DNA from: Chiloscyllium plagiosum
Lineage: Eukaryota
Length of the DNA stretch: 64,000 nucleotides
Reading direction: 5' to 3'
Assembly (NCBI RefSeq): GCF_004010195.1
Contig: NC_057710.1
Coordinates: forward strand, 138,008,075-138,072,074
Shown here: positions 2,976-63,424 of the stretch, one piece after another
Layout of the letters: each line of letters opens with the position of its first letter
Position numbering within the stretch: position 1 is the first letter of the stretch
The notes under the pieces: generated by a model
Told to the model about the DNA's origin: nothing
Seen by the model: only the letters and a program-made list of their open reading frames with translations
The model's database searches: none
Made by a program: the position numbers and the translations under genes

Positions 2976-4054
2976 ATTTTCAAAATAAAACCCAAGTTCT
3001 CACAAGCTGTTTACTTTTTTGGCTTGGAAGAGACCACTTGGCAACCTTTGTTCGTTTAAAAAAAAAAGGACAAAATACACCTCTTAAAGTTTCATCACAA
3101 ATCTAAAATGCATACAACCTTTATTAAATAATACACACAATGTATGAAACACAGTTCAGTTCCTGAAAAAAAGAGTCATAGTTAAATATGAGTCATAGTT
3201 AAATATTAACTGCTTCTCTGTCCAGAGATGCTCAAAGACCTGCTGGGTTTCTCCAACACATTGTTTCCATGTCAGACTCACTATTACAATCAATAACAAA
3301 TGCTACAAACAAAAACTGCAGTAAACAATGATAAGAAAATATAACTTCATTTCCTTTTGCTTGATTACTGCACTTAAAAGCAGTATAAATTAGCAGCAGG
3401 TTTTCTTTTATAAAGGAAATTCTTTCATGGGTTACACATTTCTGGAGTAGGGGTAGGGACAGAATCACAGTGCCACAAGAGGGTCCCTCTCAAGGGGCTG
3501 AATTACCTCTGGCTGCTCATATGTTTAAATATTAAAGTACCAGAATCCAACTGCTCTTGAACTGGAGTCCACATTCAACAAAACAACATACACTGTATAC
3601 ACTCAAATCATTTTAAACTTCACTGCAGTTTCCAAAATTTTCTATTTTGATTTTTGAAATGACAGCATTTGCTTACACTGGAACTACGGGCAAACGTGCA
3701 CAATGTACCAGTGTCGGCAAATGTAGCCTTTCAAAATCTCCTGAAGTCAAGCGATCAGAATGGTTCAAGAAATTCTTGAATACACATTTAGTGCTTTTAT
3801 TAAATCCCCAAAAATCTCACTTAAGGCCTGCTGGTCATACGTGGTCTTATTTGATGTAATAAAAATGTATTCAACAGTGTTATGTAGAAACTTTTACACG
3901 ACTACCATCAACAACATAAAAGGTGGGCAAGATTTGATTAGAGTTGAGCAGCCCGCTACAACTGACAAACATTTTAAAACATGGATGAACTATTGCAGCC
4001 TTTTGAGTTCCTCGAAGCACACTAAGTGTGAGATGCAAAGAAAGATTTATTTAC

Positions 4055-4975: not shown

Positions 4976-5110
4976 AGTTCTGATGAAAAGCCATTAATTT
5001 AAAAGATTAACACTGTTTTAAGCTTTCCATTCATGCTGCTTAACTTGCTGAGTATTTCTAGCATTTCCTGTTACACTTCAGGTTTCCAGTATCTACAGTA
5101 TTTTGCTTTA
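4976..5110 (+). mobile_element. Degenerate Penelope-like terminal unit (family B)
   Basis: cagttctgatga...atgctgcttaacttgctgagtatttctagcat...tttccagtatctacagtattttgcttt, homologous to 26156-26260. Confidence 0.6.
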
Positions 5111-5734
5111 CCAGGTGATAGAAAATTGGACCTATTCAAATAGGTCAGGGGATTTAACGAAGAAACTCAGTCAAATCTATTACAACAGTCACTAAGAGTG
5201 AGCAAATCACGAGAAAGGTGCAAAAGATATTAAGCACAGTACTAACGCTTACTTTCAGCAGTTAGCAAAAATGTTAAGGAGCAAGTAAAGAGGGAATTTC
5301 AGAGTTTAGGTCCAAGGCATTAGGAGGTTTGAGTGCCAACAGAGAGAAGAAGAAAATCATGAACAGAGAAAAGGCAAGAACTAGTCAAGCACAGAAGAGC
5401 TGTATGGCTGAATCAAGGACGAGAAATAGGAAGAGGCAAAATTACTTCGAGATTTTAAAAATCACGGCCTTGTTGCGCCAGAACGCAATGTAGATTCGAG
5501 GACAGGAATGATGGGTGGACAGGACTTAGTGCCAGTTAAGATCTTGGTAGCTGAGTTATGGGTACATTCCATTGGCTAGAAATTGGAAGGCCATTCAAGA
5601 GTGCAATGAAATAGATATGTGTAGGGATAGAGGAGAATTTCAGAAATAAGTATTTCTACCAAAAGCAGATGTAAACAAAGTTACACAGGTGAAAGAAAAT
5701 GGTACCAGTAATGGAAAAAGATAGCTCTGAAACC

Positions 5735-7856
5735 ATGGAAGGCAATGACATTATCATAATGTCAATGGACTAGTTATCCAGACCCCAAACTAATGTTAAC
5801 TTCTGGTAGAATTCAATAAAATATAGAACAAAAAGATGGCTTAACAGCAACCATGGAATCATTGTCGATTGTCATTTTAAAATAAAAGCTGCTCTACTAA
5901 GTCCTTTAGGGAAGGAAATCTGCCATTCTTACCTTAAATAAACCAAAGAATTGCAGATGCTGGAAATCTGAAATAAAAACAGAAGTCGTTGGAGGAACTC
6001 CACACATCTGGCAGTATCTGTGGAGAGAAAGCAGAGTTAGCATTGAGTCACAACTCTTCTTTTGAACTGTTTCTGTGTCGTTCTCACCTGTCTGGCCTAA
6101 TTAGTCTCCAGCCCCACAACAATGTGGTAGGCTAAATGCCCTCTTACATGGTCTAACAAATCATTTAGTTGTATCAAACTACTGCAAAGTTTAAAGGAAC
6201 AAAATGAAACAAGACAGACGGCTGGGATTAATCTCGAAATGACAACAGAAAACACAGCCTTGTCAACCTTGCAAAGTCCTCCTGATCAACATCTGGACCT
6301 TGCTCCCAAAATTGAGACATTCTCCACAGATTAGTCAACCATAATCATATTACAGAATGATATCTCAGAGACAATATCCCAGCCACTACCATCACCAATT
6401 CTGAGTATTTCCCACCAGCAGGACACAGGCAGCAGAGGTGGTAACACAGTGCTTTCCAGTCAGGAGGGAATTGTTGAGGAAGCCCTGAATATTGACTGAA
6501 GATCCTATGAAATTTCATAGGTGTCAAGTCAAACATAGGCAAAGATTTATGCTGCTGATTAGCATCTATCTCTCTGCCCTTCCTCTCCCTACCTCTCACC
6601 CAAAGCACTAAGCCTGTGCTGTGGTATAGATTTCATGAAGCATTACAGGCCATCAGCAGCAGCAGAACTGTACCCAACCACAATCTGTAACCCAGCACAT
6701 CCCCACTCTACTATCAGTCCTGATTCAGTGAAGGGTCCAGGAGGTTATGTCAAGAGAAGAACCAGGCACACCTAAAAGTGAAGCTACAATACAATATTAA
6801 TTGCATACCCAGCAGAAAAGGCATGAAATAGACAGGTCTAAGCGACACTGCAACCAAAGAACTAGATTTAAGCTTCTCAGTGCTGTGATAATAATTAAAC
6901 CAACAAGAGATGGAAACTCTACAAACAGCCTTATCCTCAACAATAAGGGGTGCCATTGTATCTTTTCTAAAGACAATGCTGAAGAATTGCATCCACGCCA
7001 AGCCAAAGTGCTGAGTAGATAATCCACCACAACCAACTTCAGAGGTGCCCAGCATCAAGGGATACCATGTTCATCCAAATCAATTCACTCCAATGGGATA
7101 TCAAGAAGTTGCTGAAGTCACTGAGTGCTGCAAGACCTTTGAGCACTGACAATATTTCAGTAATAGTACTGAAGACTTGTGGTCCAGAACAGATTGTGCC
7201 ATTAGGCAAGCTGTTCCTGTACCACTGTACAACACTGGCATCTACTGATAATCTGGAAAATTACCCAGTGAAGTCCTGTACACAAAAAAACAGGACAAAT
7301 CCAGCTGAGACATTTATTGGCCTCTTCATCTGGTCATGATCATCTTAGCACTCGCTGATGCTCAGCTTGAGTTCTGTCAAAGCCACTCGACACATAAATA
7401 AGAACAGAATTCATGAGATGAGATGAGAATAACTGACCTTGACCTCAGGGCAGCAGTTGAGCAAGAATGGGCAGCAAAATTCCCTAGCAAAGCTGGAAAC
7501 ATTGGGAAAGAGGGCAGTGGGAGCAAAGAGACAGAGACAGAGGGAGAGTACATGCAAGAGAGAGTGCGAGAGCACGAAACACACAGATAGATATGGATTC
7601 TTCCTCATACCTGACACAAAGGAAAATGGTTATATTTGAGGATTATTCATTTCGACAAAAGCTCCTCAGGGTAGTGCCCAGGGCCCAACCAGCGTCAGCT
7701 GATTTAATAATGACTTTCCCTTGATCGTAAAATCGAATTAGGACTGTTTACTGATGATTATAGAATGTGAAGCAAAATTGACGACAACTCAAATACTGAT
7801 ATAATCCTTGTCCTTTTGCAGCAAAGCCTGGACAACATCCTGACCTGGGTTAACAA
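5735..7856 (+). mobile_element. Old, fragmented CR1/L2-group LINE (endonuclease to RT remnants), interrupted by a minus-strand Penelope-like unit at ~5940-6069
   Basis: Remnant peptides DIKKLLKSL...PLSTDNISVIVLKTCGPEQIVPL and PQGSAQGP...NDFP (RT motif) with many stops. Confidence 0.65.
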
Positions 7857-7967
7857 ATCGAGAATGTGGTGCTAGAAAAGCGCAGCTGGTCAGGCAGCTT
7901 CAGAGGAGCAGGAGAATCAACATTTCGAGCATAAGCTCTTCAAGATCCGGAGGCCTCACTTTCTCCC
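7857..7967. mobile_element. Penelope-like unit (family A) with inverted 5' part, flanked by a 10-bp TSD
   Basis: gggttaacaa at 7847-7856 and 7968-7977; body inverted relative to the tail cctcactttctcc. Confidence 0.7.
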
Positions 7968-7979
7968 GGGTTAACAAGA

Positions 7980-8226: not shown

Positions 8227-8546
8227 GACAGGCAACAAAGGCAGGCAGAGTCAACAATGCCCAGATCTCATGAACAAATAAAAGAAATTCAGCTTGTAGC
8301 TAAAAATGATGTCAAGGTTGCATCAAGAGTTCACTCTCAGATAGTGGTCAGGAGGGATATAGTCTATGACAAGAACCAAATATAATAGCTTTGTTCTTCC
8401 CAATATTCAATAGAGGCACTTGACAGTCAATAGCATCAGACAATTGACAGATCACAAGTTAAGACATTCATCATAATGAAGCTGAAGGTTTATGTTGATG
8501 GGCAGATGAGAGTAGAATTGTTTGGAGCTGACTTGAAGAGAGATTG

Positions 8547-8679
8547 AGATTCCTGATGAAGGGCTTTTGCCCGAAATGTCGATTTTTCTGCTCCTCAGAT
8601 GCTGCCTGACCTGCTGTGCTTTTCCAACACCACTCTAACCTTGACTCTGATCTCCAACATCTGCAGTCCTCACTTGTAC
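8547..8679 (+). mobile_element. Penelope-like ~133-bp unit (family A) headed by a minimal hammerhead motif
   Basis: ctgatga-a-gggc-tttt-gccc-gaaa-tgtc at 8553-8580; flanked by cttgaagagagattg / cttggagagagattg (14/15 identical). Confidence 0.75.
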
Positions 8680-9024
8680 CTTGGAGAGAGATTGGGTGGA
8701 TATTTACTGCAATTAGAAATTGCAAATTCAGGAACATGTAACCCAATTTCCCATCACAATACTGACAGACTAAAATCAATATGAAAAATACTGCAGCCTC
8801 AGGTAGGGATTGTGAGCTCATCCAGCACAAGTAGAATACTTGAGTTGCACCACTTTTAACACTCACTCCTTTCACCACTAACATACAGAAGCAGCAGTCT
8901 GTGCTAGTTATAAAATACACTGCAGTAACTCTCCAATGCTACTCTGACAATTTAGAGACTCGAACATGCTTTTTTAGTAGTTTCACCAAAACTGTTGGCA
9001 GTGCCATTTTTCAATTTAAACATT

Positions 9025-13220: not shown

Positions 13221-13435
13221 AACCTCCAGTAACTCCTCCTTGTCCTGTCCAATTTTAAATCTTTTGGTGCTGCATTCTGCACTTTTCCCACCCAGAGCTA
13301 TCACACTTGAATCATCTTATTTTTGAGACAGCTGACACCTAAAAGTTTAGTTCCCCTCCAAAACTGCAGGAAAAGCTCACACAATGTTTGCTATTTTAAG
13401 TGTTAAAATGGGGAACATTGCTTAGTTGTTTAATT

Positions 13436-13670
13436 TCACCTCCATCCCCACCCCATTCACCTATTGTATTCTTTGCGACCTTCACCCCAGCCCCACCCCC
13501 CTATTTATCTCTCCATCCTGGAGGCTTCCTGCCTCTATTCCTGATGAAGGGCTTTTGCCCGAAACATCGATTTTCCTGCTCCTCGGATGCTGCCTGACCT
13601 GCTGTGCTTTTCCAGCACCACTCTGATCTAAACTTTGGTTTCCAGCATCTGCAGTCCTCACTTTTGCCTA
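13436..13670 (+). mobile_element. Penelope-like 3' terminal fragment (family A) with hammerhead motif and upstream pyrimidine-rich segment
   Basis: ctgatga-a-gggc-tttt-gccc-gaaa-catc at 13541-13568; downstream part ~85-90% similar by eye to 8581-8679. Confidence 0.75.
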
Positions 13671-14126
13671 GCTTGAAGAATAAACCATAGAACAAATTAC
13701 AGGGGTGTTAGTCTCAACTTTTCAATGTTGTGCCAAATGTATGGACTAATTACAGCTTCAATCTAAGGAGTAGGAGTAAACCACATACATTTTTGAGTCT
13801 CTTCTAACATTCAGTATGATTATGGCTCATGTTTGACATAAATTACTTTTTCCCACTTCCTCCAATGCCTTAATTCCCTGAGAGACCAAAAACCATAAGC
13901 ATCTTTGTTATTCCAAGTGCTACTGTACTTGATGTCTGCTATCTGCTTTCCTGTTGATTGACCATGGGCCTCTATTTTTATCAGAATATCACAAGAGTGT
14001 AAAGGAACTGTAAAGATTAGGAATTGATCATTTGGAAAGTTAAGATGTACAAAACTGTAATTCAGGACAGCAAGCTGGGAAGTTACATATAAGTTGGGTT
14101 TTCCTTTCTCAGCTATTTGAAACTGC

Positions 14127-17802: not shown

Positions 17803-17891
17803 TCACTGTATGATCTATGGTGAGTAACATCGAGTTGCAAGTTTGTCTTTTCAACTTGAAGTAATTTTGTGTTCTGTCTCTAATCTTTCAG

Positions 17892-19075
17892 GACCTTATT
17901 TCAAAATTCTTCAGGCCAGAGTCGTGATGTCTTCCATTTGGATATTAAAAATATTGGTGGTATTGGCCAGATTCTGGATTTTATGTATACTTCGCACCTT
18001 GATCTAAGCCATGAAAATGTCCAGGCGGTGTTGGACATTGCTCAGTGTTTGCAAGTACCAAATGTACTCAGTCTATGCTATACTTTCCTAAAGGCTTCAG
18101 CAAATGTCATTGGTGATAGCAGCAACTTGTCAGCTGTTGGCAGTATTTCGCTGCATGGGGCCCTGACAACCAACACAGAGGATATGCTGGAGAATACGGA
18201 TGGTACTGAGATAAACCATGACTGCTCATTTGGGATACAGACTCATATCCATAAACCTCAAGAGCTGGGGCTTTTATTTAGACCACTGCCAGAGATTTCT
18301 CAAGCTGAAATATCAGCAACTTTGCAGAATCAAAATCCTGGACTCCCAGACAGGACTTCTTCAGATTATCCAATGAGGCAAAATGCTCAACAGCCTTCTA
18401 AATTGTACAACTGTTATGGAAAAGAAATGTTCAAACAAAATCTGTCACCTTTTTTCAATAGTAATCAAGGGGAGCAAAGAAGAATGGACCTCGACAATGG
18501 TATAAGTACAGCAGTAACCACGAAGGATGTATCTTCCCTTGAGCCTACTGAATGCAACAGTGCTGCTCAGGAGCAGTCCTCATCAGGCATGACGATGCAC
18601 ACAGAAGAAAGATGGTCCTTTAGTCAGAGTGTGGGGGACATTGAAACTCAACCAATGAGACAATTGCTTCACGTGAAAAAGAAAGTCCCTCTGAAGAAGT
18701 ATGATTATTTGTGGCCCAAGAAACTGCTCGAGGCACCTTCTGTGCTCCCTAAAGTGAATGAAATATCCGAAGCTGAGAAAGTAAATGGACACAGTTCAAG
18801 GGAGCTCCCCAAAGAGAACTTAGGACAAGGCAATTGTGCTGGGGAGAAGGATCAGGAACAAGTAAAACTGACTGACTCACCTTTGAGAGAAAGTGATCTA
18901 GGACCGGTTGACCATGGAGCTACTGGAGATTCTGAGGAAGTTCTTGATCAGTCTTTAAATAACTCAAATGTTCAGTCTCAGTTTTGTCAGTCACAGAAGC
19001 AATATTGTTGTGAACTATGTGGAAAAACTTTTAAACACCCGAGCAATCTTGAACTACACAGACGTTCCCATACAG
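17892..19075 (+). CDS. ZBTB49: ZBTB49 coding exon 2: rest of BTB, long low-complexity linker, zinc finger 1
   Basis: tttcag acceptor, 1184 bp phase 2-1; DVFHLDIKNIGGIGQILDFMYTSHLDL ... YCCELCGKTFKHPSNLELHRRSHT. Confidence 0.96.
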
Positions 19076-19339
19076 GTATAGTAAGTGTTGGGAATACTCC
19101 ATTTTGGTCTTTATGCTTGACTTGCTATTTATTTGCTAAAGGCTAATTCTCCCCAACATATCACATCATTTCTTATGCAACCTTCCTTAGTGGACACTGT
19201 CTTCCCACTTTCTGCCACAGCTTTTCCAAGACATGGGTATGTGATACCAGGACCAGTTCAGATAGTGAAGTGGTAAATACTGTTTTACTGGGAGCTTGAA
19301 TACAGAAGGAGAAAGGTGTACTTTAGGACATGAAACACT

Positions 19340-23456: not shown

Positions 23457-26155
23457 TTTGCTGGGATTTTTCACCTCAACAGCTTCTCTGTTGCAGAAAC
23501 TAGAATGTATTTTAGTCTCTTTATTTATGCTTTATTTTCTGTTGTTCACAGTAAGAAACAAATTTCAAAAAGCATCCAATGCTTTAGATATGCAGGATTT
23601 ATTATTAATTAAAGCCACTAAATTTCTTATGATTTGGAGTCTAAAAGAAAACATTATCACAGTGAGCATTAATGCATTACCGTTTAAGTGGCTTTTTTCC
23701 CTTTGAATAAAGTCTGTGGAAAGTTGCCTCGAGGTTCTGAACTATATCAAGGATTTGCCTTAATGCGGAATTGGCTCCTCATTGTGACTAACTTCAGATT
23801 GTGAATGAAATGTGCCACAGTTAATATTACTTTGAAATACCAAGATAATGGTTCCAACATGAATACTGTTCTTTGTGGCCAGGATCCCTCCAGAAATGTT
23901 TGTCAAAGTTAACCCAGGAACCTACATCACCATTTGGTGCATGTTTGGAGAAGGTGGTTCGCCTAGGATTTTATTGTAAACAGGGAGACGTTACCACTCC
24001 AAGCTTGTTGAAAGATGTTCATGGCACCCCGTGGTTACTCAGTTTCATTCTGATCAAGTAGCTGTTACAGGAGAAACTAGCCTGATACAGTTCACAACAA
24101 AGCTAGCCATTGCTGATATTTCAGGCTAAACTACAAAGAACTGAATATGGAAATTGTTCCAGTCACTACAATCAGCTTATGAAAACTGGAAGTTGGCCAA
24201 ATGCATTTATTATCATCAGAATACTGGCCAGTACAGGTAACAGTCACCTTGCTCAAGTCTTTGGGCATAAAGGAAAGATCCTCACCAGAAGTGAGGTACG
24301 GGTCGGCTCCTAAATTCAGATTGAAAAAGGAAAGTGGTTCATATTGGGAATTCAGAGCTGAGGCATTACAAGGTCATGTCTTTATTGAGACATTGTACCT
24401 CACAACTGAGTACATATGCTCAATTACACCACATTTCCCTGTTCCAGGATGATAAAGCACGTAAAGTCTCAATCAGCCATTTATATTAATTCTAACTTTG
24501 ATCTCTACATACATCCTGTCAATAGATTGCAGCAGAATAACACCGTGGAGCTCACAAAATACATTTAACTCTCCTCAATTTATTCTAACCATTCTGTCGC
24601 CATGGTTATATTGGTTCTTCAGCACCACAATTATATTATCCTTAGCAGTGCTTCCCATCATTTTATTACTATAAATACACCAAATTAACAGATTTCAAGC
24701 CATAACAACATGGATGAGTGAATTTTACACGTTCTATTATTCCATCATCTAAGAAAGATTCTTGCCTTACACCTGCATCCACTTTCATGGTCAGTGGAAA
24801 GCTATTTTAACTTCTTGTTTGCTGGTACCATGACAGCCCAGAATGTTGGGTATCTGATAATTGTGAATTCATCTTCCCATACTTGACATCTCTCAAATAG
24901 TGTCTTCATAGTTCTGCTCAATATTTCTCGACACCTTCCCCAACTATCAGTAATAGCTAAACTTCTTTATTTTCCAGTCATGACCTAATTCTTGATGCAC
25001 TCCAATCGAAGATATCTAATTTTTTTTGTCAGTTAGAGAAACAATTGAATCCAATCTAACCATTTCTTTGAGCAATATGTATATTTGTATTTCTTTTGTT
25101 TACTGTCATGCTGAAAGCTCAAGACAGACTCCATGGGCTGAATGGTCTATTTCTGCTCCTGTTGTCTTACCGTCTCATTCAGAATTCAGATGTTAATCGG
25201 GCAGTGAATCAGTGATTAAGGGGAAAAGGCAGTAAAGTGGAATTGAGGAACAGACTTGATGGAATGAATGGCTTACTTTCTTACTTCTTATGGTGTTCAA
25301 AAATAATGGATTACATCTAGGTTATTCTCAACATTTAGAAGAAAAGCATTCAAACTTTCAACTTCTGACCTCACTGTCACGGTAGAGAAGTTGCCTGGCT
25401 AATTACAGCCATTTGAATCTTCTTAAAAATATTGATGGGATTTGATCATTATGACCCAGAAATTCCAATGGCAGGTTGTCTTTTCTGCAGCATACACTGG
25501 AGTTGTGTGCCAGACTATGCGAAATTCCTGACAGAGCTGACTGAGGAAATTTTCCAAGAAATTGAAAACTTTGATAGTCAATTCCTCTGTATCTGCAACC
25601 ATCCATAAATATCCCATATAGTCAATGTCGAAGAACTGCACTTGTTAAGCTTAATAGAATACAGGAGATGTTTGAGGATTAAAAACCTACTCTAACTCCT
25701 GAGTAGCTACTAAACTGAACCCCTGACTCACCACAGATGCCCCACTCCCAACAATATTTCCCCTTAATCCCCAACACCCTCTACCTCAACGCTACTGAAC
25801 CAACATCATTGCACTATGCCCCGTTTCCAAACCGCTACAATTTGACTATCTTGATCTTGAAACCTCCTTAGCCCAACAAGCCACTGACTTGACCCAAAGC
25901 AGTTGCAGGGTGGTCTGTTACAGGGTTAATCCCGAATACCCATTCCTGACATGAACCTGCCTTGTTGCCTGGCCATGGTACAAGGGGCTAGTATCTTTTT
26001 CCCACATTACTCACTGGAAAATCTCAGTGTCAGTGTGGGAACAGGGTTTTAAAGAAACCCTATAATTGACCCAAACTACTCTCATGTGGATTACATACTA
26101 CTTGCGTGCAGGCAGCTTTTCCAAACTTGACCTGGCATCTCAGGAGCATCTTAAA

Positions 26156-26260
26156 AATTCTGAAGAAGGGTCGCACAACCCGAAATGTTAACTCTGATTT
26201 CTCTGCACAGCTGCTGCCAGGCCTGTTGAATTTTTTCCAGCAATTTCTGTTTTTGCATCT
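26156..26260 (+). mobile_element. Penelope-like unit (family B) with hammerhead motif
   Basis: ctgaaga-a-gggt-cgcaca-accc-gaaa-tgtt-aact at 26160-26193. Confidence 0.65.
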
Positions 26261-26455
26261 TAAAAGTGATTGGCAGTTCTATCAATGACTGACCTCATGC
26301 TTGACCATGTATAAAGTATGCTTTAATCAAAAAATGATGTGGACAATTATAAATGTATATTTTTATACAGTGGGAAATTGCCTGTTTGGGTTTGCAAATC
26401 TCTGAGTTGTTGATGTCAGTATATTAACTTGAATTTCTACTTTATTTTCTACCAG

Positions 26456-28595: not shown

Positions 28596-28621
28596 CTCTC
28601 TCTCTCTCTCTCTCTCTCTCT
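28596..28621. repeat. (TC)n microsatellite
   Basis: About 13 TC units seen directly. Confidence 0.95.
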
Positions 28622-29203
28622 GAGAAAAGCACTAACTCACCTGTATGGCTTTCTTGATTTTATTTTTGATCTTGCCACTGGACACATGCCTGACCTCTTC
28701 CCTTCCTGCCTTCATGACTCCGGCAAACAGTAACTAGCTTTGTGGAAGATCAGAGTTGTAAATCTCAAGGCAGACTTGTTTGTTTTCACTGGAATTTAGA
28801 AGAGTGAGATGTGATTTGATTCAAGTATATAAGACTCTGAATTGTCTTGACCAGGTGGAAATAGAAAGGGTGCTTCTTTTTGTGGATGAGTCCAGATCAT
28901 TGAGGCACTGTTTTAAATTTAAGGGTTGTCCTTTTTAGGACAGATATGAAGAGAATGTTTTTCTGAGGAATGGCCGACTTTGGAACTCAGGGCCTCAGAA
29001 AGAGATGGAGGTGGGGCCACTGAATATTTAACAGCTGTGCAGTAAAGTGGTGTCCCGTAGCCACTTATGAAATCAAAAAGCTGTGTTTGGAACCAAAAAT
29101 AAAAGTTGCCTTAACTTTGTATGCATTAAATTTGTTTATAATTTATGTATTTAAAATGGTGCCGGACTACGGCAACTTATACACATTTTACTGTATTTTC
29201 ACA

Positions 29204-29332
29204 TTCCTGATGAAGGGCTAATGCCGGAAACATCGACTCTCATGCTTCTAAGATGCTGCCTGACCTGCTGTGCTTTTCCAGAGCGACAGTTTTCGACTCT
29301 GACTTTGCAGCATCTGCAGTCCTCACTTTCTC
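29204..29332 (+). mobile_element. Penelope-like ~129-bp unit (family A) with a perfect 13-bp TSD
   Basis: ctgtattttcaca at 29191-29203 and 29333-29345; starts ttc-ctgatga-a-gggc-taat-gccg-gaaa-catc. Confidence 0.8.
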
Positions 29333-29939
29333 CTGTATTTTCACAAATACATGTAACAATAAATTACCACTCTTTACTATTTATAAAGTGGTGTACATTG
29401 ATTCCCTTACCAAACAGAAATCTAAGGGGCAAACCAAAATGTGCAATTCAAACCTTAAAAAGTGTAGCCATGATTCTACTGAATGGTGGGGTATTGCGAG
29501 GGACTAAATGGCCTACATCTGTTTCTCATTCATACGTTTCCTCAGTGCAGAAAATTGATGGACTATGCAAACCTCTTCATACCCTTTCTTTGGGAGGAGT
29601 GGCTTCACATTTGGGAGTAGGTTGAAGAGGAATTTAGAAAGGCACAGTTAGTTGAACAATGGAAGAAATAAATCTTGTAACACTATAGGATTCTGATTTT
29701 ATATCTCACCTTATGTCTGAAAAATACAAGGGTTGATAGGTTTAATTGAGGTGATCAAATAAGATTAGCCCACAAGCAGTATAAGAGCTTACATACAACT
29801 TTTCCTGTTACGTATTGATTCTGTACTGACATACTTTTTGCAACACTGCTTGATACTAATAAACTAATCAAAGTCTTTGAATACTTGTGTTGCAGTATGT
29901 AGCAATGAATCTTTTAAATCTAATTTGTTAAAATTTTAG

Positions 29940-30101
29940 GTTTCAGTAACTTCAGTAATTTAAAGGAACACAAAAAGACACACAGTGCAGATAAACTGTT
30001 TACTTGTGACCAGTGCGGAAAGTCTTTTAACATGCAGCGGAAACTTGTTAAACACCGAATCCGTCATACAGGAGAGCGGCCATATAATTGTTTAACATGC
30101 G
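29940..30101 (+). CDS. ZBTB49: ZBTB49 coding exon 6 ([54 protein letters not shown])
   Basis: ttttag acceptor, G|gtaggt donor, 162 bp phase 1-1. Confidence 0.96.
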
Positions 30102-31145
30102 GTAGGTTTATTGTTAAAGCATCTAGAAATGTTTGCGCTCTGAAATATTTTCAACCAAGTAAAATGTCATTGGTTTGCTGATAGCTCAGCAAGCTTTATC
30201 AGACATTAACCGAATCACACAAATTATGTGGATTCTGGTGGTGCTGAATATTTTAGTTATTGCCATAATAAAGTATTGAGCTATATAAATTATGAGATTG
30301 AGGGTTTGATTTGACTGGATAAAGAAGGGGGTTGTCTTAACGTACTGCATTTTAAATTCTGATGGCACACACAGGTATCTCCAAAACATAAAACAATGAA
30401 TTTGTGTTTTGGAGAGTTATTGTATTTTTTGTATAATGTACTTTATTTTTACAACGGGTAAGGAATGTTTAGTTTATGGCCTGTGTTTATTGTTTATAGC
30501 AATATAGGCTGTGTCCATATCATGAATGTGATTTTAAAAAAAAGAGTATCTTTATCGTTCAGATACTTCAGTCTACTTCATTTTTCTGCAAAGTGATCTT
30601 ATTGCAACATCTTTAATACTATCCTCAGGATCATTTGCACTGGAATACTTATAAAAACATATTTGTCTGAAGTCCTATGCTACGTATAATTGGTTGAATC
30701 TAAGACTGTTAGGTCAATATTTCATAATGTATAGGAGGGTATGTATATGTCTGATCCTGCAACAAAACAAAAGAGAAGAGAATTCTTCAAGGTTAATTCA
30801 TTAAGGGAATTCTATTAGAAAGCATTTTTTCTTTCTAATCCATTTCCGTTAAACTTGACATGTACTTCTGTGGGTGATAAACACCTCTCAATCAAATGTC
30901 CATTCTTTCTTTCATGATCCACAGCAGTCTGTATCAGCAGGTTCTTAGATGATTGGATAATATGTTTTATGATCCGACTCATAGATAAATATACTTTCAG
31001 ACACAGTCGATGGATGTATTTAATGTTAATTAATTGAACACTATAGAGCAAGCACTGGCATTTTTAGAAGACCTTTTCCTTGGTGTTGTTACAGAAACAC
31101 AGTATACTTAGCAATTACTCCTATGTCCTTTCTTTTAACTTGCAG

Positions 31146-31837
31146 GAAAACGGTTTGCAGGTTCTGGTGACTTGCGTCGCCATGTCCGAACACACACTGG
31201 TGAACGGCCATATAATTGTGAGACATGTGGCAAGTGCTTCACCCGTTCTGCTGTGCTGCACAGACACAAGCGAATGCACTGCAAGTACAATGGAGACCAT
31301 GACGTAAGAAATGAAGAGATTGACAGCTCTGAGGAAAATTATCGACAGCCTGCAGAGCAAAGATCACCAGACTCTGAGCCGCTCAGCCAGGCTATGCAAG
31401 TTGCACTGCTGCCAGTCTCTCCATTAGACAAGCTTCATGGTGACCCAGAACAACCTTCAGTTGGGGTGACTGAGGCATCAGCAACCATGCATGAAGATTC
31501 TCATTCTGAATATAATTCTTTGGTTCAACAACAAGTGGATGATCATCAAAACAAAATGGTATTGAGTCCTGCTAAAACTCACAAGCCTCAAGCTTCCCAT
31601 CATCCTCACACTCACGTGGTTGACAGCAGCCCAAGGTCTGAAGAGTCCTTGCCATCTCAGAACCCCTCAACTGTGCGATCATCAGTGACAAGTCTGGACA
31701 TTCACATTAATGTGCCCTTTGGAAATCACACACCTAGTGTTTCATATCGAACAAATGAAGGACCATTCCTCTCCAGCCTAACACTGTGGGGTCTGGCAAT
31801 GAAAACCTTACAAAATGATAATGAATTAGATCAATGA
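31146..31837 (+). CDS. ZBTB49: ZBTB49 final coding exon: fingers 6-7 and C-terminal tail ending [18 protein letters not shown]; spliced CDS is 2400 nt / 799 aa
   Basis: ttgcag acceptor; in frame with upstream exons; C-terminus matches recalled human [18 protein letters not shown]. Confidence 0.96.
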
Positions 31838-31957
31838 CAGACTTTTTATCTTAATTCAGCTAATATAAGCAACCGTTAGATTGCACTTGAGTTTTATTTT
31901 TGGCATAATTGCTGAGAGGGAGAAAGAAGTCTTGTGAAATGTATTTTTGTAAGTTTT

Positions 31958-33250: not shown

Positions 33251-35799
33251 AAATAGAGATGGGAAATAAATGCCGGCCCAGCCAGCAACATTCACCTTCC
33301 CTGCACCAAATAAAAATAAGGAAATTATATGACTGATTCATAGCAAACTGGTCAGACGACCATTAACAAGCAATGTAACAATTTGTCAATCATAGAGCAA
33401 AAATATTGGCGTCTGATTGAAGAATTGCAAAGAAACAATGGGACTGAAAATCAGAGTTGCAGCGAAGCTTAAGTATTACTATCCAGGAGAAAGCTTTTCT
33501 TCAAAAGAAACTTGAGATTTGTCTGATATTAATTGTTTCTTGATTCATTGTGGTTTGTTTCTCTTCCTGTATCTGCACATCTGGCATACCCTCATTCTAT
33601 TTGCCTATGTACATTTATTGTAATTGTAATGTCTCTGAATTCTCATTTCTTTCTGAAAGCCTGTTTTTGCCATTTACCTTCTTCCACTACTTATTTTCTT
33701 GTTGGTTTATATTCATTTTGTGTATATTTCCTTTTTAAAATTTACCAAAAATGACAGTATAAATTTCAAGGAGTGCATGTGTGTGCGCACGCATGTGTGT
33801 CTTTGTGTCTTCGGATCTGGTTTAAGATGCGGCAATACAATGTAAAGATAATGCTGGTGTTGAGTTGGATCTGAAGATGTAAGTTGGCAGTTGTGTGTGA
33901 GAAATCACTATTTCGGGAGTCATTTCAAAATATAAAGTTTTTTTTAAATATGCATTTTCCCCCAATTTACCTGACTTTCAGATACAGTTTAATAGAAAAC
34001 ACAGATCAGATTTCTGTATAGAGCAAGAATTACAACTTACTGCAAGTAATTTCATTCTAGCTATAGGTAAATTTTATATGCAAATTAAAACTCTAGTGAC
34101 CTTTATCAACTTATCCTTACCCACACACCCACACAGACGGACAATCAAAGTAAAAATAGTTTTTAAAAAATGAAAGAACTGTGGATGCTGTAACTCAAAA
34201 ACAAAAACAGAAATTGCTGGAAAAGCATAGCAGGTCTGGCAGCATCTGTGGAGAGAAATCAAAGTTAATGGTTTTGGTTGAGTGATCCTCAGTGGTCAAA
34301 ATCGAGTGAAATAGGTTGTGGACAGGAGAAAACTGGAAAGACAGTTTAGTAGTCTTTGTTCCTAGCTTCTGTTGTTGAGATGATCTTTCTGACTCTTCTG
34401 TGGGCCAGCACATTACTTTAATTGTCTTTCTCTAGAAGTTCCAATGTTTGTTGAGAGACACGTGACTGATATGCTCATTTAAAAAGTCTAGCTTACCAAT
34501 TAAAAGTCAAAGCATCTGGCAGCATCAGTGGGAAGAAAGTTTTTATTTCAGATATCCAGCATCTGTAGTTTTTTCATATAATACCACTCCTCAACTAAAG
34601 AAGAATTAACACTTCTCTCTCTGTACTTGTTCTCAGTTCCAAGCTGTTCAGTTACCTCACAACCAACCTCACAGTTGTTAGTAGGCAAAATAGCCTCTGT
34701 CACTGATAACTGGTCACTAGTCCATAGACTAATCAACGTCTTGCTATCAGCAAAAGCTATGTCAGTACATCCACTCAACTACAAATCATTTGGCAATTCA
34801 TCTTTCAATTACTGCTTATTCAGACAGTTGTTTGCATGGTGCCTGATGTAGGTGTCCAGTTATTTGCTTTCAAATCTCCAACCACCCTGTCAAACACTCA
34901 TTTTTAAAACAGCTCTCCTATTGGAGAGCTCAAATATTAACAGTGCCATGCTTTAAAGGATACCTTAAAGGCAAGACGTACATGTGAGTAGACATTGGGA
35001 TAAGTTTACAGCCAAAGCAAAGGTCGAGTACGATAGGCATCATTTCTGTTGCAGGTGGAGCACCTCAATGAGGCAGAGTATCCAATAAAATTTATAAGAT
35101 GAGGGCATCACTGGCTGGGCCAGCATTATTGCCAACCCTAGGTTTTCATTGAGAAAATGGTGCAATCAAGCAGTCTTCTTGAACAATGTACAGTTCAATG
35201 CTCAGTACAGTGGGAGATTGCAAGATACCCTGACATATCAATGAGTGTGAATGAGTCCTGCACCAACTTTGCACAGGGCTTTGTGGCTAAGTCCATCAGC
35301 ACTGGGTTGAACGTGGTGCAGCATCGAGTAGGCAATATCTCAGCTTTCATTGTGGTACAAGCAGAAGCCACACAATGGCTGAGTAGTGCAGCAGAGACTT
35401 AATGTTTGTTCAAGTCAGCTTGATGTATGTCTGGTTAGCAGTGTTCAAAGGAAACCCTGGAGTCTCCCAGCATTCCAGTAATGTTTCCTCCAATATTTTA
35501 GGAGGAAAGTTGACCCATCACTCCAGCAGAATGACAGTGGCTGTGTGGAGCATGAACCAGTTGTCTTCTGTCAGGGTGACAGCGTTTGTGCCTCCCACCA
35601 CTGACACTCTGCTCCTAGCCAGCCCAGACTGCTGCACCCATGCTGAGATGGTACTGTGCAGAGCGGGAGTTTTTAAATCCAAAGCTGTTCTGGATCACCA
35701 TCCAAGGCCATCTTCAGGGTCCCTAGTGGAAATTAGTGAAAATTAGCTGTTGGCCACCAGCCACACTAGGTTAAGACATGTTACTAATTAACCAATTTG

Positions 35800-41812: not shown

Positions 41813-43445
41813 TAGAACATAGAACAATACAGTGCAGAACAGGTCCTTCGGCCTTCAATGTTGCACCAACCTATGAACTCATCTAAGCCCATCCCCCTAC
41901 ACTATCTCATCATCATCCATGTGCTTATCCAAGGATTGTTTAAATCTCCCTAATATGGCTGAGTTAACTACATTGGCAGGCAGGGCATTCCATGTCCTTA
42001 CCACTCTCTGAGTAAAGAACCTGCCTCTGACATCTATCTTAAATCTATCATCCCTCAACTTGTCTTTATGCACCCTCATATAAGCTAATGTCATCATCCT
42101 AGGAAAAATACTTTCACTGTCTATCCTATCTAATCCTCTGATCATCTTGTATGTCTCTATCAAATCCCCTCTTAGCCTTCTTCTCTCCAATGAGAAAAGA
42201 CTCAAGTCGTTCAGCCTTTCCTCATAAGACCTTCTCTCCAGACCAGGCAATATCCTGGTAAATCTTCTCAGCACCTTTTCCAATGCTTCCACATCTTTCT
42301 GTAATGGGGCGACCAGAACTGCATACAATATTCCAAGTGCGGCCACACTAGCGTTTTGTATAATTGCAGCATGACATTACGGCTCCAGAACTCAATCCCT
42401 CTACCAATAAAATTTAACACACTGTATGCTTTCTTAATAGCACTATCAACCTGGGTGGCAACTTTCAAGGATTTCTGTACATTGACTCCATGATCCCTCT
42501 GTACATCCACACTACCAAGAATCTTTCCATTGACCCAGTATTCTGCCTTTCTGTTACTCTTCCCAAAGTGAATCAACTCACATTTATCTGCATTGAACTC
42601 CATTTGCCATTTCTCAGCCCAATTCTGCAGTTTATCCAAGTCCTCCTGCAACATTCTTCCACACTGTCCACTAATCCAGCGACTTTAGTGTCATCTGCAA
42701 ACTTTCTTAACCATCCACCAATGCCTGCGACCAAGTTATTTATAAAAATAACAAACAGCTGTGGTCCCAAAACAGATCCTTGTGGCACATCACTAGTAAT
42801 GGGACTCCAGGCTGAATATTTTCCATCAACCACCACTCGCTGTGGCTCCAAGTAGTGGAGAGTTTTCTCCTTGATTTCAGTCAACTTCTATTTTATTGAG
42901 GTTCCTTGATGTCACACTTGGTCCTGAACTGCTGTGCTTTTCCAGCACCACTCTAATCTAGATTCTGGTCTCAAGCATCTGCAGTCCTTGTTTTTACCTA
43001 GTTGATTTCAGTAAAACCTTTGATAAGGTTTCACATGGTAGGCCGTTTGAGAAAATGCAGAGGCATGGGATTGAGGATGATGTAGCAGTTTGGATTAGAA
43101 ACTGGCTTTCTGTAAGAAGACAGCGAGTGGTGGTTGATGGAAAATATTCAGCCTGGAGTCCCATTACTAGTGATGTGCCACAAGGATCTGTTTTGGGACC
43201 ACAGCTGTTTGTTATTTTTATAAATAACTTGGTCGCAGGCATTGGTGGATGGTTAAGTAAGTTTGCAGATGACACTAAAGTCGCTGGATTAGTGGACAGT
43301 GTGGAAGAATGTTGCAGGGGGACTTGGATAAACTGCAGATTTCTACCCTCATCCACATGCTTGGTCACCTTCTCAAAAAACTCAGTGAGGTTTGTGGAAC
43401 ATGACCTGCACTTGACGAAACCATGTTGACTATCTGCAATCAAAA
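41813..43445 (-). mobile_element. Rearranged CR1 with an internal inverted duplication and two captured fragments
   Basis: RT motifs [18 protein letters not shown] and KFADDTK occur on both strands (42624-42843 vs 43120-43339). Confidence 0.9.
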
Positions 43446-43699
43446 TTTTCAGTGTGGAATCATTGCATGTTGGAAAGTCTTCAAACAGTTGTTACCATTA
43501 GCTTTTGTTGAACAACAGGCAAAATGAAAAAAGAAACAAACAAAAGGAACTGCATTTGTTTCTGGGAAAAACAGGGGCTGCTCGTATTTCAAACAACAAA
43601 ACATTACATCAAATGAGAAATCACTTTATCTAACTTTATGAAAAAGCAGCTGTCACGTCCTGTCTGGATTGTTGTGCCTATTGGTGCAGTGCTCTGTCA

Positions 43700-44600
43700 T
43701 GCTGAAGGTGATGTTCTTCCTTCTCATTGGCCTCATATCCTTCCTTGGAACACTGCTGTTGCTCTGCCAGTGTCTCCCACATCCACTCATTGCCTGCTTC
43801 AGTTGTGCAGGGCACAGCATGCTAGGATAATGCAGCACATTCTTTCTGGACTGTACTGAAGATCCCCACATAGTCCGGATAGATCGTGATGAAGAGCTGA
43901 TGCTTGAACGGCGATCCTCCTGCTCCTCAGATGCTGCCTGACCTGCTGTGCTTTCTCAGCACCACATTCTTCAACTCTGAGCACCAGCATCTGCCGTCCC
44001 CAGTTTCTCCCAGATAGATCTAAGCACAGCATCTCATCTACATGAGGTCTATTGTCTGATTCACAATGGTTCTGCTGAAAGGATGGGCAGCATTGCAGTT
44101 AGTCTTGGCCTCAGTGATGAGATTGTGTAAGGGAGTCATCAGACAAGGTTATAGAGGGCCCTTGTTTCACAGTAACCATCCCTTGGAAGGCAACCAACCC
44201 TTGAAATGGAGCAGGAACATGAGAGTTCTCAGGGACTCTCAAGACATGGGCATCTTGACAGCTCTTAAGATACTTGACACAGACTTTCAAGATGTGATAC
44301 TGATGATTGCAGATGACCTCTACATTGACGGAATGGAATCTTTTTCTGTTGATGAAGTCAGCTGCATTATGATATAATACTCCCCGTGCGATGTGTGTGC
44401 AGAATGCCTTGTCCCTGCGGGAGCCCAGTGACATTGGCAAAGCCTGCTGCCCAGGCTGCAGCACTGAGTTTGCCACAGGGAAACAAGATGAAATGGTGTG
44501 GTCTGACACATATTGCATCAGTGACAATATTTAGTCCATTCCCTGGACCACATCTGTGTCCTTTGAGTTTGATTGTACTTATTTGTCGTCTTAACACTTG
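43700..44600 (-). pseudogene. Decayed PIF/Harbinger (HARBI1-like) DDE transposase, interrupted by a Penelope-like unit at 43886-44012
   Basis: FCTHIA...NAADFINRKRFHSVNVEVICNHQYHILKVCVKYLKSCQDAHVL and LQYSPERMCCIILACCALHN correspond to Harbinger motifs IDCTH, NRKGFHS.NVQ, GS.HD and C.LHN. Confidence 0.85.
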
Positions 44601-46844: not shown

Positions 46845-48420
46845 GAAGCTTGGAATTATTATGGTGCAGAAAGAGGCCATTTGGTCCATCATGCCTGCAC
46901 TGACTGTATTATCTAGTGCCATCTTCTACCTTTTCCCCATTTCCCTGCACACCATTACTCCATTACTATCCAAAAAATGATCCACTGCCCTCTTGAATAC
47001 CTCATTTCCAGGTAGTGCATTCTAAACACTACCAACAAAGTGTTTTCTCATATCACCACTGATTTGTTTGCACATCATTTAAAATCTATGCCCTCTCATT
47101 CTTGATTTTTGTATAAGCAGAATCAGCTTCTGCCTATCTACTCTGTCCAGCCTATTCACGATTTTGAAAACCTCAATCAAATCTCCTTTGAGTCTTCTTC
47201 CAGGGACAACAGACCCAACTTCTTCAATCTGTCCACATAACAGAAGTTCCTCATTGCTGGAACTATTCTTGTGAATTGCTCCTGCACTCTCTCCAATGTA
47301 TTTGCATCTTTCCTATCATTTGGCACCTGCAAAAGTATACAATAATCTAGCTGAGGTCTGACAAGTGTCTTTTCCAAATTCAAAATCACCTTCTTGCTCT
47401 TGTATTCTGTGCCGCTATTAATAAAGTGGAGAACACTGGATGCTTTATTAGCTGCTCTCTGAGTCCCTGAAGAAGGGTTACACGCGAAAGATCGACTTCT
47501 CCGCCTCCTGATGCTGCCTGGCTTGCTGTGTTCTTCCAGTCTCCTGCTTGTCTACTTTGGATTCCAGCTTCTGCAGTTTTTTTGTCTCTCTCCATCTCTC
47601 CTGACACCTTCAATGATCAAGCCACATGTATACCCAGGTCCTACTGCTCCTGAGCTCCCTTTACAATTGTACCCAAAGTTTTCTATCATCTTTCAAAATG
47701 CTTCAGACGAAAGTGCATCACATCACACTTGTTGACCCTCATCTACCATCTATCCACTCACTCCACCAACTTTCAATGTCTTTTTGGATTTTTACACCGT
47801 CCTCCTCAGTTTACAATTCTTCCGAATTTAGTGCCATCTGCAAACTTTGAAACTGTCCCATACGCACCAAGACTTAGATCAATATCTGCCTGGAAAAGCA
47901 AGGGCCCTGATACTGACCTCTGGGCAACACTACTATGAACCTTCCTGCAGCCTGAAAACTATTCATTGGTCATACTGCCTGTTTCCTAACACAGCCAATT
48001 TTGTAACCATGTTGCCTCTGTCTCTCTTATATCATTATCTTCAACTTTCCTCACAAGTCTGCTGTGAGGCAGTGTGTCAAATGCCTTCCAGAAATCCCCG
48101 AATGCCAGATTATTCTTACAACCCTTTCTGAAAAAGACCATAATATTGGAAATTCTCCAGCCTTCTGACATCTCTCTGGAGTCCAGGGAAGACAACCAGT
48201 GTCTCTATAATTTCTATCCTCGATTCCTTAAAATCACTGAAAGTCCTTGGATGTATCTCATCAGAACCCAGTGCTTTGTCAACTTTAAGACCCATCAGTT
48301 TATTCAAGACTTCTTCATCATTTAATTCTGGTCACTTCTGGTGGCAGAGTTTCTTCCTCTATCACTGAACCACTCTATGACTGAGGCAGCATCCTCCTCC
48401 TTTAAGAAGACAGATACAAA
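46845..48420 (-). mobile_element. Old CR1 remnant containing a plus-strand Penelope-like unit at 47461-47585
   Basis: LVRPQLDYC...LERVQEQFTRIVP, DFWKAFDTLPHSRL and KVDKALGSDEIHPR remnants. Confidence 0.8.
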
Positions 48421-53784: not shown

Positions 53785-53877
53785 CAAAGCCAGGAGTCAT
53801 ACAACACCAGATTATAGTCCAATGAGCTTATTTGAAATCACAAGCTTTCAGAGAGCTGCTTCTTCGTCAGGTGACTT
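53785..53877 (-). mobile_element. Penelope-like terminal fragment (family C) with hammerhead motif
   Basis: Minus strand aagtcac-ctgacga-a-gaagcagctctct-gaaa-gctt-gtgattt. Confidence 0.65.
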
Positions 53878-61639: not shown

Positions 61640-61890
61640 TCCTCATTTAGATTCTTCACCCACTATGCACTCCACTCTCCTCACTGACCTCTCACAATTA
61701 CCCCTCCACCTGCATCCACCTATCACTTTCCCAGCTACCTTCACCTCAGTCCCACCCCCCACCCCCCAATTCATCTCTCAGCCTCCTTCCCCCTCCGCAT
61801 TCCTGATGAGGGGCTTATGCCCGACTCTCCTGCTCCTCGGATGCTGCCTGACCTGCTGCGTTTTTCCAGCACCACACTATTTGACACTGA
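61640..61890 (+). mobile_element. Penelope-like 3' terminal fragment (family A) with a deleted hammerhead core
   Basis: Homologous to 13436-13670; ctgatga-g-gggc-ttat-gccc-ga followed directly by ctctcc. Confidence 0.72.
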
Positions 61891-63424
61891 TAATAATCCC
61901 CCTTCTTTCTTGTAACATTCATCATGTCGGAGGGGTGGTCAATCTGGGAATGCACCTTAATGGAATTTTGGAATTCTGGGCAGCACCCAGAACTACGCCT
62001 GAAAGCAGAAGACATTAACAAATAAAGGTTCTCCATCGTTAGGAACGGAAAACCTGCCACATTTTCTGGTAATCAGACACTTTATTGGTAGTTGGCAGAT
62101 TTTCTACTGGCATTAGTACTCAGATTGAGAAGAAAAAAGGCCGCCAACAGAAGCTGGTAGCTGTAGCACAAGGCAGTACCCAGCAAGGGTCATGGCTGCT
62201 GTCATTACAGCCCTCACCAGATTCCCAGGATGACGCAAATAACCTGGAACAGATGAATGTTCTTGGGTGGTGGGAGTATCTTGCAGGGTGGGTTTTGACA
62301 GATGAAGGGGTCTGAACTAAGGGGGGGTGTCAGCAGCCACCCCGTTGACCTATGTCCAGTCTCTCAATTGAACACAGATTAGTGCGGATCAGAGGAACTA
62401 GCTGTCACTCTGCCTACACTGTCAGGTGGCCTCCCAGCAGGCAATGGGGTAGGAACCTGGGAGGCCCTGCCCAGAACCTCATTCCAGTTGAGGTGGAAAT
62501 ATGGTGGGGCTCTGGTACATCATCATTCCTCTATATCCTCATTACATTTTCTTCCTGCCTCCAGATTTCCCACCTCAGAACTGGAAGATTCTGTCCTCTA
62601 ATGGCCCAGATCTTCCAGTCTCCGCATACTCAGAGACCAGGCAGAGGCCAAGAGACGTTTATTAGGACCGGACACACTAATCCTATAGGAATTGCTTGGG
62701 AAGCTTATAATTCCAAAGGACAATTTCCCTGCTTCATGTGACTCTTCAAGAAAGCCTTCAGCTCTGAGTTAGAAGCAGAGACTCCAGTTAGTTCCAACAT
62801 ACTTACTTGGAAAATTGCCCAGGAAACGTTAAACAGAATATTTTTGATTGGGTTTAATTTATAAAAAAAATTGATTTGGCATGTTTGTTTACAGAATCAC
62901 ATGTGTTTCAGTGCAACAGGAGACCATTCCATCCATCATACCTGTACTGGCTCAATAAATGAACATCATTACCGAGAGCCAGTTTCCATCTTCCCCATAC
63001 CTTGCACATTATTTTTCTTCAAATAATAATCCAATACCCCACTGAAAGTTTCAATTTGACTTGCCTGCATCATATTTCTAGGCAATAGAAATGCCTTAAC
63101 TATGCCCTAACTACCCCCCTGTATGAAATAAAAAAGTTTTTCTTTATTTCTTTTGCAGGTCTATGCCCAAATGTTTGTTTTTGCAGCTTTCATTTTTGCA
63201 TTGTGGCCAAGAAGGTGCAGTGAGGGTCCATGATCAAAGAAAGCTAGTTGTGGAAGTGTTGTTGAAGGGAAGATCCATTTCCTGGTGGCATACTTGCCTG
63301 AGTCTTTCACAGGTAATTTGACCAAGGGGTCAAGTTTGGATGCCTCCCACCTCTCCTTGCTGATATTATTATCTGGCACCTCAGATTACAGCTGGTGGTA
63401 AGGGATGCCCTCACAATGAATAGG

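What the first reader, a model, noticed from the sequence alone, without database searches (positions are those of the whole stretch)
29191..29345. Discrete ~130-bp ribozyme-headed mobile unit: independent TSD-flanked insertions share both ends
Seen: four insertions each have their own flanking direct repeat: 8547-8679 (15 bp, 1 mismatch), 29204-29332 (13 bp perfect), 43886-44012 (8 bp gatagatc) and 47461-47585 (6 bp ctctct). All are 125-133 bp, begin within ~6 nt of the CUGANGA core and end at an equivalent pyrimidine tail. They have no tRNA/Pol III head and no ORF. Random 5' truncation should give scattered 5' ends. Self-cleavage of a type-I hammerhead would place the 5' end after the GUC, not before the core. 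Inference: either a non-autonomous SINE/retrozyme-like unit mobilised by a Penelope RT/GIY-YIG protein, or a strong RT stop at the folded ribozyme. This is my best candidate for an undescribed system here, although solo Penelope terminal repeats are known in general.
Basis: partly seen in the sequence, partly recalled or inferred. Interest (0 to 1): 0.7.

Follow-up and report, generated by a model that had tools for sequence, protein, structure and literature searches.

The report
Penelope run-off stubs headed by hammerhead
The ~130-base inserts are real, very abundant jumping-gene stubs that start at the front edge of a small hammerhead ribozyme motif, and they are likely dead-end copies of a Penelope-like retrotransposon's RNA leader rather than a new kind of mobile element.

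Summary
The observation mostly holds. Three of the four flanking repeats are beyond chance (13, 15-17 and 8-11 bp); the 6-bp one is not. The window holds 13 family copies. Two more carry real duplications, and two extend upstream and share diagnostic letters with the short ones. In two DNA runs laid on a long copy, depth rises about 17-23-fold over 18 bases in front of the core. The 3' end lies as far behind the core as the published internal RT start of Anolis Poseidon. Best reading: RT starts about 125 nt inside an uncut Penelope-like RNA and likely runs off its 5' end. A stop at the folded ribozyme predicts the wrong edge. An independent SINE or retrozyme is less likely but not excluded. 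No partner ORF could be shown. One lead is not in the papers I found: head-to-head copies join the -4 end to the predicted cleavage site. This scan has noted the same family on other pieces of this genome several times.

The parts
29191..29203 (+). left target-site duplication of the focal copy (b); its last base is shared with the unit's first base
   Evidence: 13 of 13 identical to 29333-29345
29203..29238 (+). minimal type-I hammerhead motif, decayed: helix I 29203-29206/29235-29238, core 29207-29213, helix II 29215-29226 with one broken pair, GAAA 29227-29230, predicted cut after 29234
   Evidence: sequence; helix pairing across copies; fails strict descriptor; no Rfam hammerhead match
29251..29315 (+). 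conserved 3' stem (arms 29251-29259 and 29307-29315); likely part of the RT-binding or start signal (inferred)
   Evidence: 89% of cells paired, no two-sided change
29316..29333 (+). pyrimidine-rich 3' end; inferred internal RT start
   Evidence: depth falls to single-copy level just behind the equivalent place in copy e; distance matches Anolis Poseidon
29333..29345 (+). right target-site duplication of the focal copy
8532..8696 (+). copy a: unit 8549-8679 starting exactly 4 nt before the core, TSD 15-17 bp
43875..44020 (+). copy c: unit 43886-44012, TSD 8-11 bp
47455..47591 (+). copy d: unit of a divergent subfamily (55-68% to the others); 6-bp flanking repeat not beyond chance
13435..13670 (+). 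copy e: long copy, about 100 nt of C-rich upstream sequence plus the unit (13537-13670); same subfamily as a; no convincing TSD
61713..61892 (+). copy f: long copy, upstream part 72% like that of e; 8-nt deletion in the hammerhead; 3'-truncated; same subfamily as b, c, g
7844..7977 (-). copy g: about 30 nt of the 3' end inverted against the rest, which reaches to about +3 of the core; 13-bp TSD with 1 mismatch
26146..26265 (+). copy i: third subfamily group, starts 3-4 nt before the core, 3' end short, 11-bp perfect TSD
4976..5112 (+). copy k: old member of the i-type group; no clear TSD
5936..6068 (-). copy l: old member of the i-type group; degraded flanking repeat
34168..34294 (-). copy j: old member of the i-type group
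42923..43000 (+). copy h: 3' half only, between two LINE RT fragments

Best explanation
The units are likely dead-end run-off copies of the RNA leader of Penelope-like retrotransposons: the element's RT/GIY-YIG protein would nick the target, start reverse transcription about 125 nt inside an uncut RNA, and run off that RNA's 5' end, which is inferred to lie about 4 nt before the hammerhead core. Shown: the target duplications, both fixed ends, the hammerhead anatomy, long and short copies in the same subfamilies, and head-to-head and tandem joints. Inferred from Anolis Poseidon: the internal start, the uncut template, and the need for RNA beyond the start site, which solo units lack and which would make them non-remobilisable. 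Inferred only: that the 5' edge is a transcription start; that long copies come from read-through, circular or template-jumped RNA; and that a minority of cDNAs run off at the ribozyme cut and are joined head to head with a second cDNA.
For: TSDs in 5 copies beyond or near the null's tail. Depth relative to +4: 0.24/0.24/0.16 at -6 and 0.058/0.044/0.094 at -14 in X2/X14/X21; the best upstream depth is 0.08/0.08/0.02 of the subfamily-specific 3' part. The top 5'-side loose end is at -4, in 753 and 767 contigs, with agreement 0.32 and an AT-rich consensus, i.e. unrelated flanks. Window copies a, b and i start at or within one base of this place. The 3' ends lie 118-129 nt behind core C3; in Poseidon the RT starts are 111-118 nt into an ORF whose ATG lies about 6 nt behind C3 (my reading of the printed template), uncut RNA is the main template, and RNA to +172 is needed. 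Three concordant diagnostics put long e with short a and long f with short b, c, g. Head-to-head orientation reproduces 7 of 7 reported junction overlaps, tail-to-tail 4 of 7; such inverted and partial-tandem forms are Penelope hallmarks.
Against: No Penelope RT or GIY-YIG in 179 window ORFs and no link to one by two protein searches, so the partner is not shown. The upstream part of copy e differs from the common form at several sites and from the other subfamily, so upstream depth is undercounted and some breaks at -4 may be long copies of another subfamily; the loose-end consensus keeps about 4 C-rich letters before -4. The tree leaves the 7 close copies unresolved. A recalled initiator pattern fits the -4 A in only 2 of 10 copies, or 2 of the 4 (e, f, k, l) that may keep upstream letters. 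The RNA run shows no place where many molecules start or end, although a poly(A) single-cell library tests this poorly. The Poseidon rules come from one lizard element in vitro.
Confidence: 0.62

Rival explanations
1. Retrozyme-like monomers: rare head-to-tail dimers are transcribed, cut by a dimeric hammerhead and ligated into about 130-nt circles; RT starts at the tail and goes round once, which would also give both ends.
For: Tandem joints that return exactly to -4 exist (13621 to 13537: 14 contigs in X2, 9 in X14). The helix III letters are mostly the palindrome needed for dimers (G at 13566 in 60%/55%/72%). Vertebrate retrozymes are reported as pLTR derivatives with solo monomers, also in one chondrichthyan.
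Against: Tandem joints number about 2 per 100 unique-flank breaks (14 against 753), though not all joints were counted. Described animal retrozymes mostly have canonical hammerheads, about 150-300-nt units and arrays. A monomer would lack the RNA beyond the start site that Poseidon needs. Long copies share the subfamilies.
Confidence: 0.15
2. An independent SINE-like family: short master copies with their own start site are transcribed and mobilised in trans by Penelope proteins.
For: Very high copy number (13 in 63 kb); both ends fixed; non-autonomous Penelope-like elements exist in Chlamydomonas.
Against: No B box and no poly(A) tail in 5 of 5 units. The same short form recurs in at least three subfamily groups only 52-68% alike, and long and short copies interleave. 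98% of laid RNA reads run on into unrelated flanks, on both strands.
Confidence: 0.1
3. RT is stopped or derailed by RNA or cDNA structure at the hammerhead, for example by fold-back of the new cDNA on helix I.
For: The 5' peak is the outer edge of helix I; the 13574 joint class fits helix-I fold-back; a second group of joints starts at 13588-13596, near the 5' arm of the 3' stem.
Against: A block by the fold should leave ends at its 3' edge (+28 to +33), not after full traversal. Helix I has only 3 of 4 pairs in most copies (one pair unpaired in 7 of 9).
Confidence: 0.08
4. Solo pseudo-LTRs left by recombination between the two terminal repeats of full-length insertions.
For: This would keep the TSD and both ends; solo pLTRs are reported in Adineta and ascribed in part to recombination.
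Against: It does not explain inverted copy g or the head-to-head joints at the same edge. It needs very many recombinations between 130-bp repeats, and the Adineta solos lacked TSDs.
Confidence: 0.05

Closest known systems
Solo minimal hammerheads of truncated Penelope-like elements (Cervera and De la Pena 2014, PMC4209133; parts 1-2 of 4 read)
   Same: Type-I minimal motif, extra base after the core, palindromic vestigial helix III, several consensus families per genome, mostly single motifs ascribed to truncated elements.
   Different: The parts read name no shark, report no TSDs or 5'-end peak, and give up to about 9,000 motifs per vertebrate genome; here the density is about 1 per 5 kb.
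Poseidon of Anolis carolinensis, internal RT initiation (Frangieh et al. 2024, PMC11167929; parts 1-3 of 4 read)
   Same: Same letters around the cut site, RT start about 117-124 nt behind the core, uncut RNA as template, both target strands extended.
   Different: There the ORF starts at stem II; here no frame is conserved through the unit (2-nt indel between subfamilies). They found no RNA reads ending at the cut site, and the text read describes no 5' peak of genomic copies.
Inverted and partial-tandem pLTR insertions (Arkhipova et al. 2013, PMC3846280; Craig et al. 2021, PMC8557442; passages)
   Same: TSDs of 8-10 bp, head-to-head inverted pLTRs (one example 37 bp shorter than the direct one), solo pLTRs, partial tandems.
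   Different: The passages do not tie the junctions to the hammerhead; solo pLTRs there are few.
Animal non-LTR retrozymes (Cervera and De la Pena 2020, PMC7229834, passages; Li et al. 2026, bioRxiv 10.64898/2026.07.22.740005, parts 1-3 of 5)
   Same: Non-coding, type-I hammerhead, pLTR-related, dispersed monomers, longer TSDs.
   Different: Defined by tandem units and circular RNAs, mostly with canonical hammerheads; the chondrichthyan average unit is 363 bp. Here tandems are rare and the motif is minimal.

Membership tests
Endonuclease-bearing Penelope-like element (terminal fragment) | Minimal type-I hammerhead in the terminal repeat | tested here: met
   Descriptor finds 4 sites in the window against 0.2 expected. 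Helices 85% paired against 26-44% when slid; two-sided changes in helices I and II. The focal copy itself fails through decay.
Endonuclease-bearing Penelope-like element (terminal fragment) | Linked ORF with telomerase-like RT and GIY-YIG endonuclease | tested here: inconclusive
   None in 179 window ORFs of 72 aa or more; protein searches blank; no genome held.
Endonuclease-bearing Penelope-like element (terminal fragment) | Fixed 3' end about 120 nt behind the hammerhead, no poly(A) | tested here: met
   compared
Endonuclease-bearing Penelope-like element (terminal fragment) | Variable-length TSDs; inverted and partial-tandem insertions; 5'-truncated longer copies | tested here: met
Non-LTR retrozyme | Tandem arrays of hammerhead-bearing units | tested here: inconclusive
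   No tandem in the window; a tandem joint in 14 and 9 contigs against 753 and 767 unique-flank breaks, counts incomplete.
Non-LTR retrozyme | Canonical type-I hammerhead with stable helix I | tested here: not met
   Helix I of 3-4 bp, no helix III stem; no Rfam hammerhead match.
Non-LTR retrozyme | Monomeric linear and circular RNAs | not testable with these tools
   Only a poly(A) single-cell sample was on offer as raw reads.
Pol III SINE | tRNA/5S/7SL head with A and B boxes, simple-repeat tail | tested here: not met
   Recalled box patterns: B box 0 of 5, A box 1 of 5, poly(A) 0 of 5; no Rfam match in the window.

The most novel reading that the evidence does not exclude
The genome preserves a fossil map of the Penelope replication cycle. 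Hundreds of thousands of solo units are integrated 'strong-stop' cDNAs that mark the RNA's 5' end, and the head-to-head copies whose short arm stops at the scissile bond are the genomic footprint of minimal-hammerhead cleavage in vivo, an activity so far undetected in RNA data.
Probability: 0.35. Interest if true: 0.65.

Novelty: new member of a known kind. Interest (0 to 1): 0.38.

Why it matters
As a family it is an expected kind of Penelope debris, though unusually abundant and worth correct annotation in shark-like genomes. Its value is as a read-out. How pseudo-LTRs arise, and whether the weak minimal hammerheads cut in vivo, are open questions in the papers read. The two sharp break classes here (-4, and +28 to +33) give exact positions to test by 5' RACE and in the existing in vitro system.

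Tried and rejected
No whole genome is held, so no assembly-wide breakpoint histogram, TSD-length spectrum or partner search was possible. Rfam: 0 matches at gathering level in the window; only unrelated weak matches at E<=10 on two copies. A 19-base pattern gave 48 metagenome loci whose best profile scores were 22 bits over about 40 bases around the seed, treated as chance; 0 in viral contigs; a 25-base pattern gave 0 in prokaryote genomes. Protein searches with one frame of copy a found nothing. Empty-site test by paralogous flanks within the window: no left and right flank pair hit adjacent places. Run X22 laid no reads (no test). No RNA holder was listed for 28600-31900. The tree did not resolve the 7 close copies. 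An ORF starting in the unit, as in Poseidon, was rejected because frames differ between subfamilies. A recalled initiator motif gave weak support only. The whale-shark repeat library (supplement 20 of PMC8455134) could not be read; it and the closed supplements of the 2026 preprint may already list this family. A search of the three text supplements of PMC11167929 found none of my terms, and its figure S2 (genomic coverage) was not visible. The 2017 paper on dimer cleavage is not held and is known here only through a review passage.

Full report
Setting. The focal copy lies in sense between exons of a BTB/zinc-finger gene (Pfam hits at 17884-19143, 29924-30178 and 31139-31834; the name ZBTB49 is recalled). 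No genome is held. Positions below are relative to the first C of CUGANGA.

The observation. With the same search geometry at 1500 random positions, 7 reach the scores of copies a (8549) and b (29204), 13 that of c (43886), and 123 that of d (47461). So a, b and c are real duplications; d is not shown to be one. A profile of five copies gives 19 hits, 13 with E<=0.005. Two further copies have duplications: i (11 bp perfect; 3 of 400 in a broader null) and g (10 bp perfect, 13 with 1 mismatch; 10 of 400). With a's repeat extended to 17 bp, a starts at -4; b and i start at -4 with one base shared with the target; c starts at 0 to -2. Copies e and f extend about 100 nt and at least 90 nt upstream, into C-rich sequence that is 72% alike between them. 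Copy h and a fragment at 3218 begin inside the unit.

Anatomy. The head is a minimal type-I hammerhead: a 3-4-bp helix I, the core plus one extra base, a 4-bp helix II, GAAA, a vestigial helix III and a predicted cut after +27. A strict descriptor finds a, e, i and an unrelated element at 53870, against 0.2 expected per window; b, c and d fail through decay. Over 11 copies the four helices are 85% paired, against 26-44% when slid. There are 13 two-sided changes (0 of 500 shuffles reach this, but relatedness inflates the test, and two of the five measures are not above the shuffles). Across the laid records the palindromic helix III letter is the majority (60%, 55%, 72%), although copies a, b, c and e each lack it. 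Behind the head lie a conserved stem and a pyrimidine-rich end. Rfam finds nothing. Copy b folds no better than shuffles, so it is likely inert.

Genome-wide 5' ends. I laid two runs of contigs (X2, organism A; X14, organism B) and two RNA runs on long copy e at 87% likeness; X22 gave no reads. Relative to +4, depth at -6 is 0.24, 0.24 and 0.16, and at -14 it is 0.058, 0.044 and 0.094 (X2, X14, X21). The best upstream depth is 0.08, 0.08 and 0.02 of the subfamily-specific 3' part. Of 18 loose-end rows shown (797 not shown), the top 5'-side one in all three runs is at -4: 753 contigs, 767 contigs and 269 reads. In the contig runs agreement is 0.32 and the consensus is AT-rich except for about four C-rich letters next to the unit, so most of these run into unrelated DNA within about 5 nt. 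Caveats: contig depth is no copy number; not all records were counted; and e's upstream part differs from the common form and from the other subfamily, which exaggerates the step. Depth falls to single-copy level just behind +129 to +139. Window density (about 1 per 5 kb) and depth point to hundreds of thousands of copies (a rough inference).

Joints. Among 15 joint rows shown (93 not shown), three opposite-strand joints link -4 to +28, +29 and +33: 46 of 58 opposite-strand contigs in X2 and 43 of 47 in X14. Head-to-head orientation reproduces all 7 reported overlaps, tail-to-tail only 4. Position +28 is the first base after the predicted cut. One to four bases of possible microhomology blur each class, and +33 also fits fold-back on helix I or a pause at the fold. 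Reading these joints as run-off from cut RNA is therefore likely at best. A tandem joint returning to -4 occurs in 14 and 9 contigs. Window copy g has about 30 nt of the 3' end inverted against a part that reaches about +3, like twin priming (recalled term).

Lineage. Three concordant diagnostics (helix II loop letter, the letter at +32, a 2-nt indel) group long e with short a, and long f with short b, c and g; h shares the indel state of a and e. The tree separates the i/j/k/l group (97/94) but leaves the seven close copies open. The short form thus recurs in groups only 52-68% alike, as a repeated by-product would.

Mechanism. In Anolis Poseidon, RT starts 111-118 nt into an ORF that begins at stem II, uncut RNA is the main template, both target strands are extended, and RNA to +172 of the ORF is required. 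By the printed template the start lies about 117-124 nt behind the core, with the same letters at the cut; here the 3' ends lie at +118 to +129. If that rule carries over, the competent start site is the one near the RNA's 5' end, and the default product is a short run-off cDNA that lacks the downstream signal and cannot move again. Drosophila Penelope transcription does start inside the upstream repeat. That -4 is such a start here is inferred: a recalled initiator pattern fits 2 of 10 copies (background 1.3% per position), and the poly(A) RNA run shows reads on both strands, 98% running into flanks, with no start peak. A block by the folded ribozyme would give ends at its 3' edge, not beyond its 5' edge. 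The circle model also explains both ends and stays open.

Membership and novelty. It works like a Penelope terminal fragment and meets the tests for motif, 3' end and insertion architecture. The partner ORF is not shown. It fails the tests for a Pol III SINE and for a canonical-hammerhead retrozyme. Solo minimal hammerheads, solo and inverted pLTRs and dispersed retrozyme monomers are in print. In nine searches of the held library and the texts read, I found no report of the -4 peak or of joints at the cut site; subscription papers, Repbase/Dfam entries and unseen supplements may hold one. Earlier scan notes describe the same family and the 5' clustering on other pieces of this genome; they are unchecked and not independent support. 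Verdict: a real, abundant new member of a known kind, with one testable mechanistic lead. Interest 0.38.

Noticed in passing
window 29182-29203 and 29324-29345: The focal repeat extends to 22 nt at 86%: the target sequence just left of the TSD resembles the unit's own 3' end. It is not seen at a, c or i, so it may be chance or a hint of target likeness.
   Followed up: partly
window 53785-53875 (-): An unrelated hammerhead-headed element that passes the minimal descriptor with a 6-bp helix I; not hit by the family profile.
   Followed up: partly
window 13586-13596 (joints): Several partial-tandem joints return to 13588-13596, near the 5' arm of the 3' stem: a possible second class of cDNA ends.
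   Followed up: no
window 13642-13740: A contig of organism B covers the 3' junction of copy e with 5 differences, suggesting that this insertion predates the split of organisms A and B (just at the 31-letter bridging limit).
   Followed up: no
window 47461: One G between the weak left repeat and the helix I start of copy d could be an untemplated cap-derived base; copy a is ambiguous in the same way.
   Followed up: no
window 41900-43491: Copy h sits between two LINE RT fragments of opposite orientation.
   Followed up: no
window 44114-44530 (-): Fragment of a DDE_Tnp_4 (Harbinger-type) nuclease just behind copy c.
   Followed up: no
window 61808-61830: Copy f has an 8-nt deletion between two short repeats that removes the hammerhead's GAAA and cut site.
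   Followed up: no
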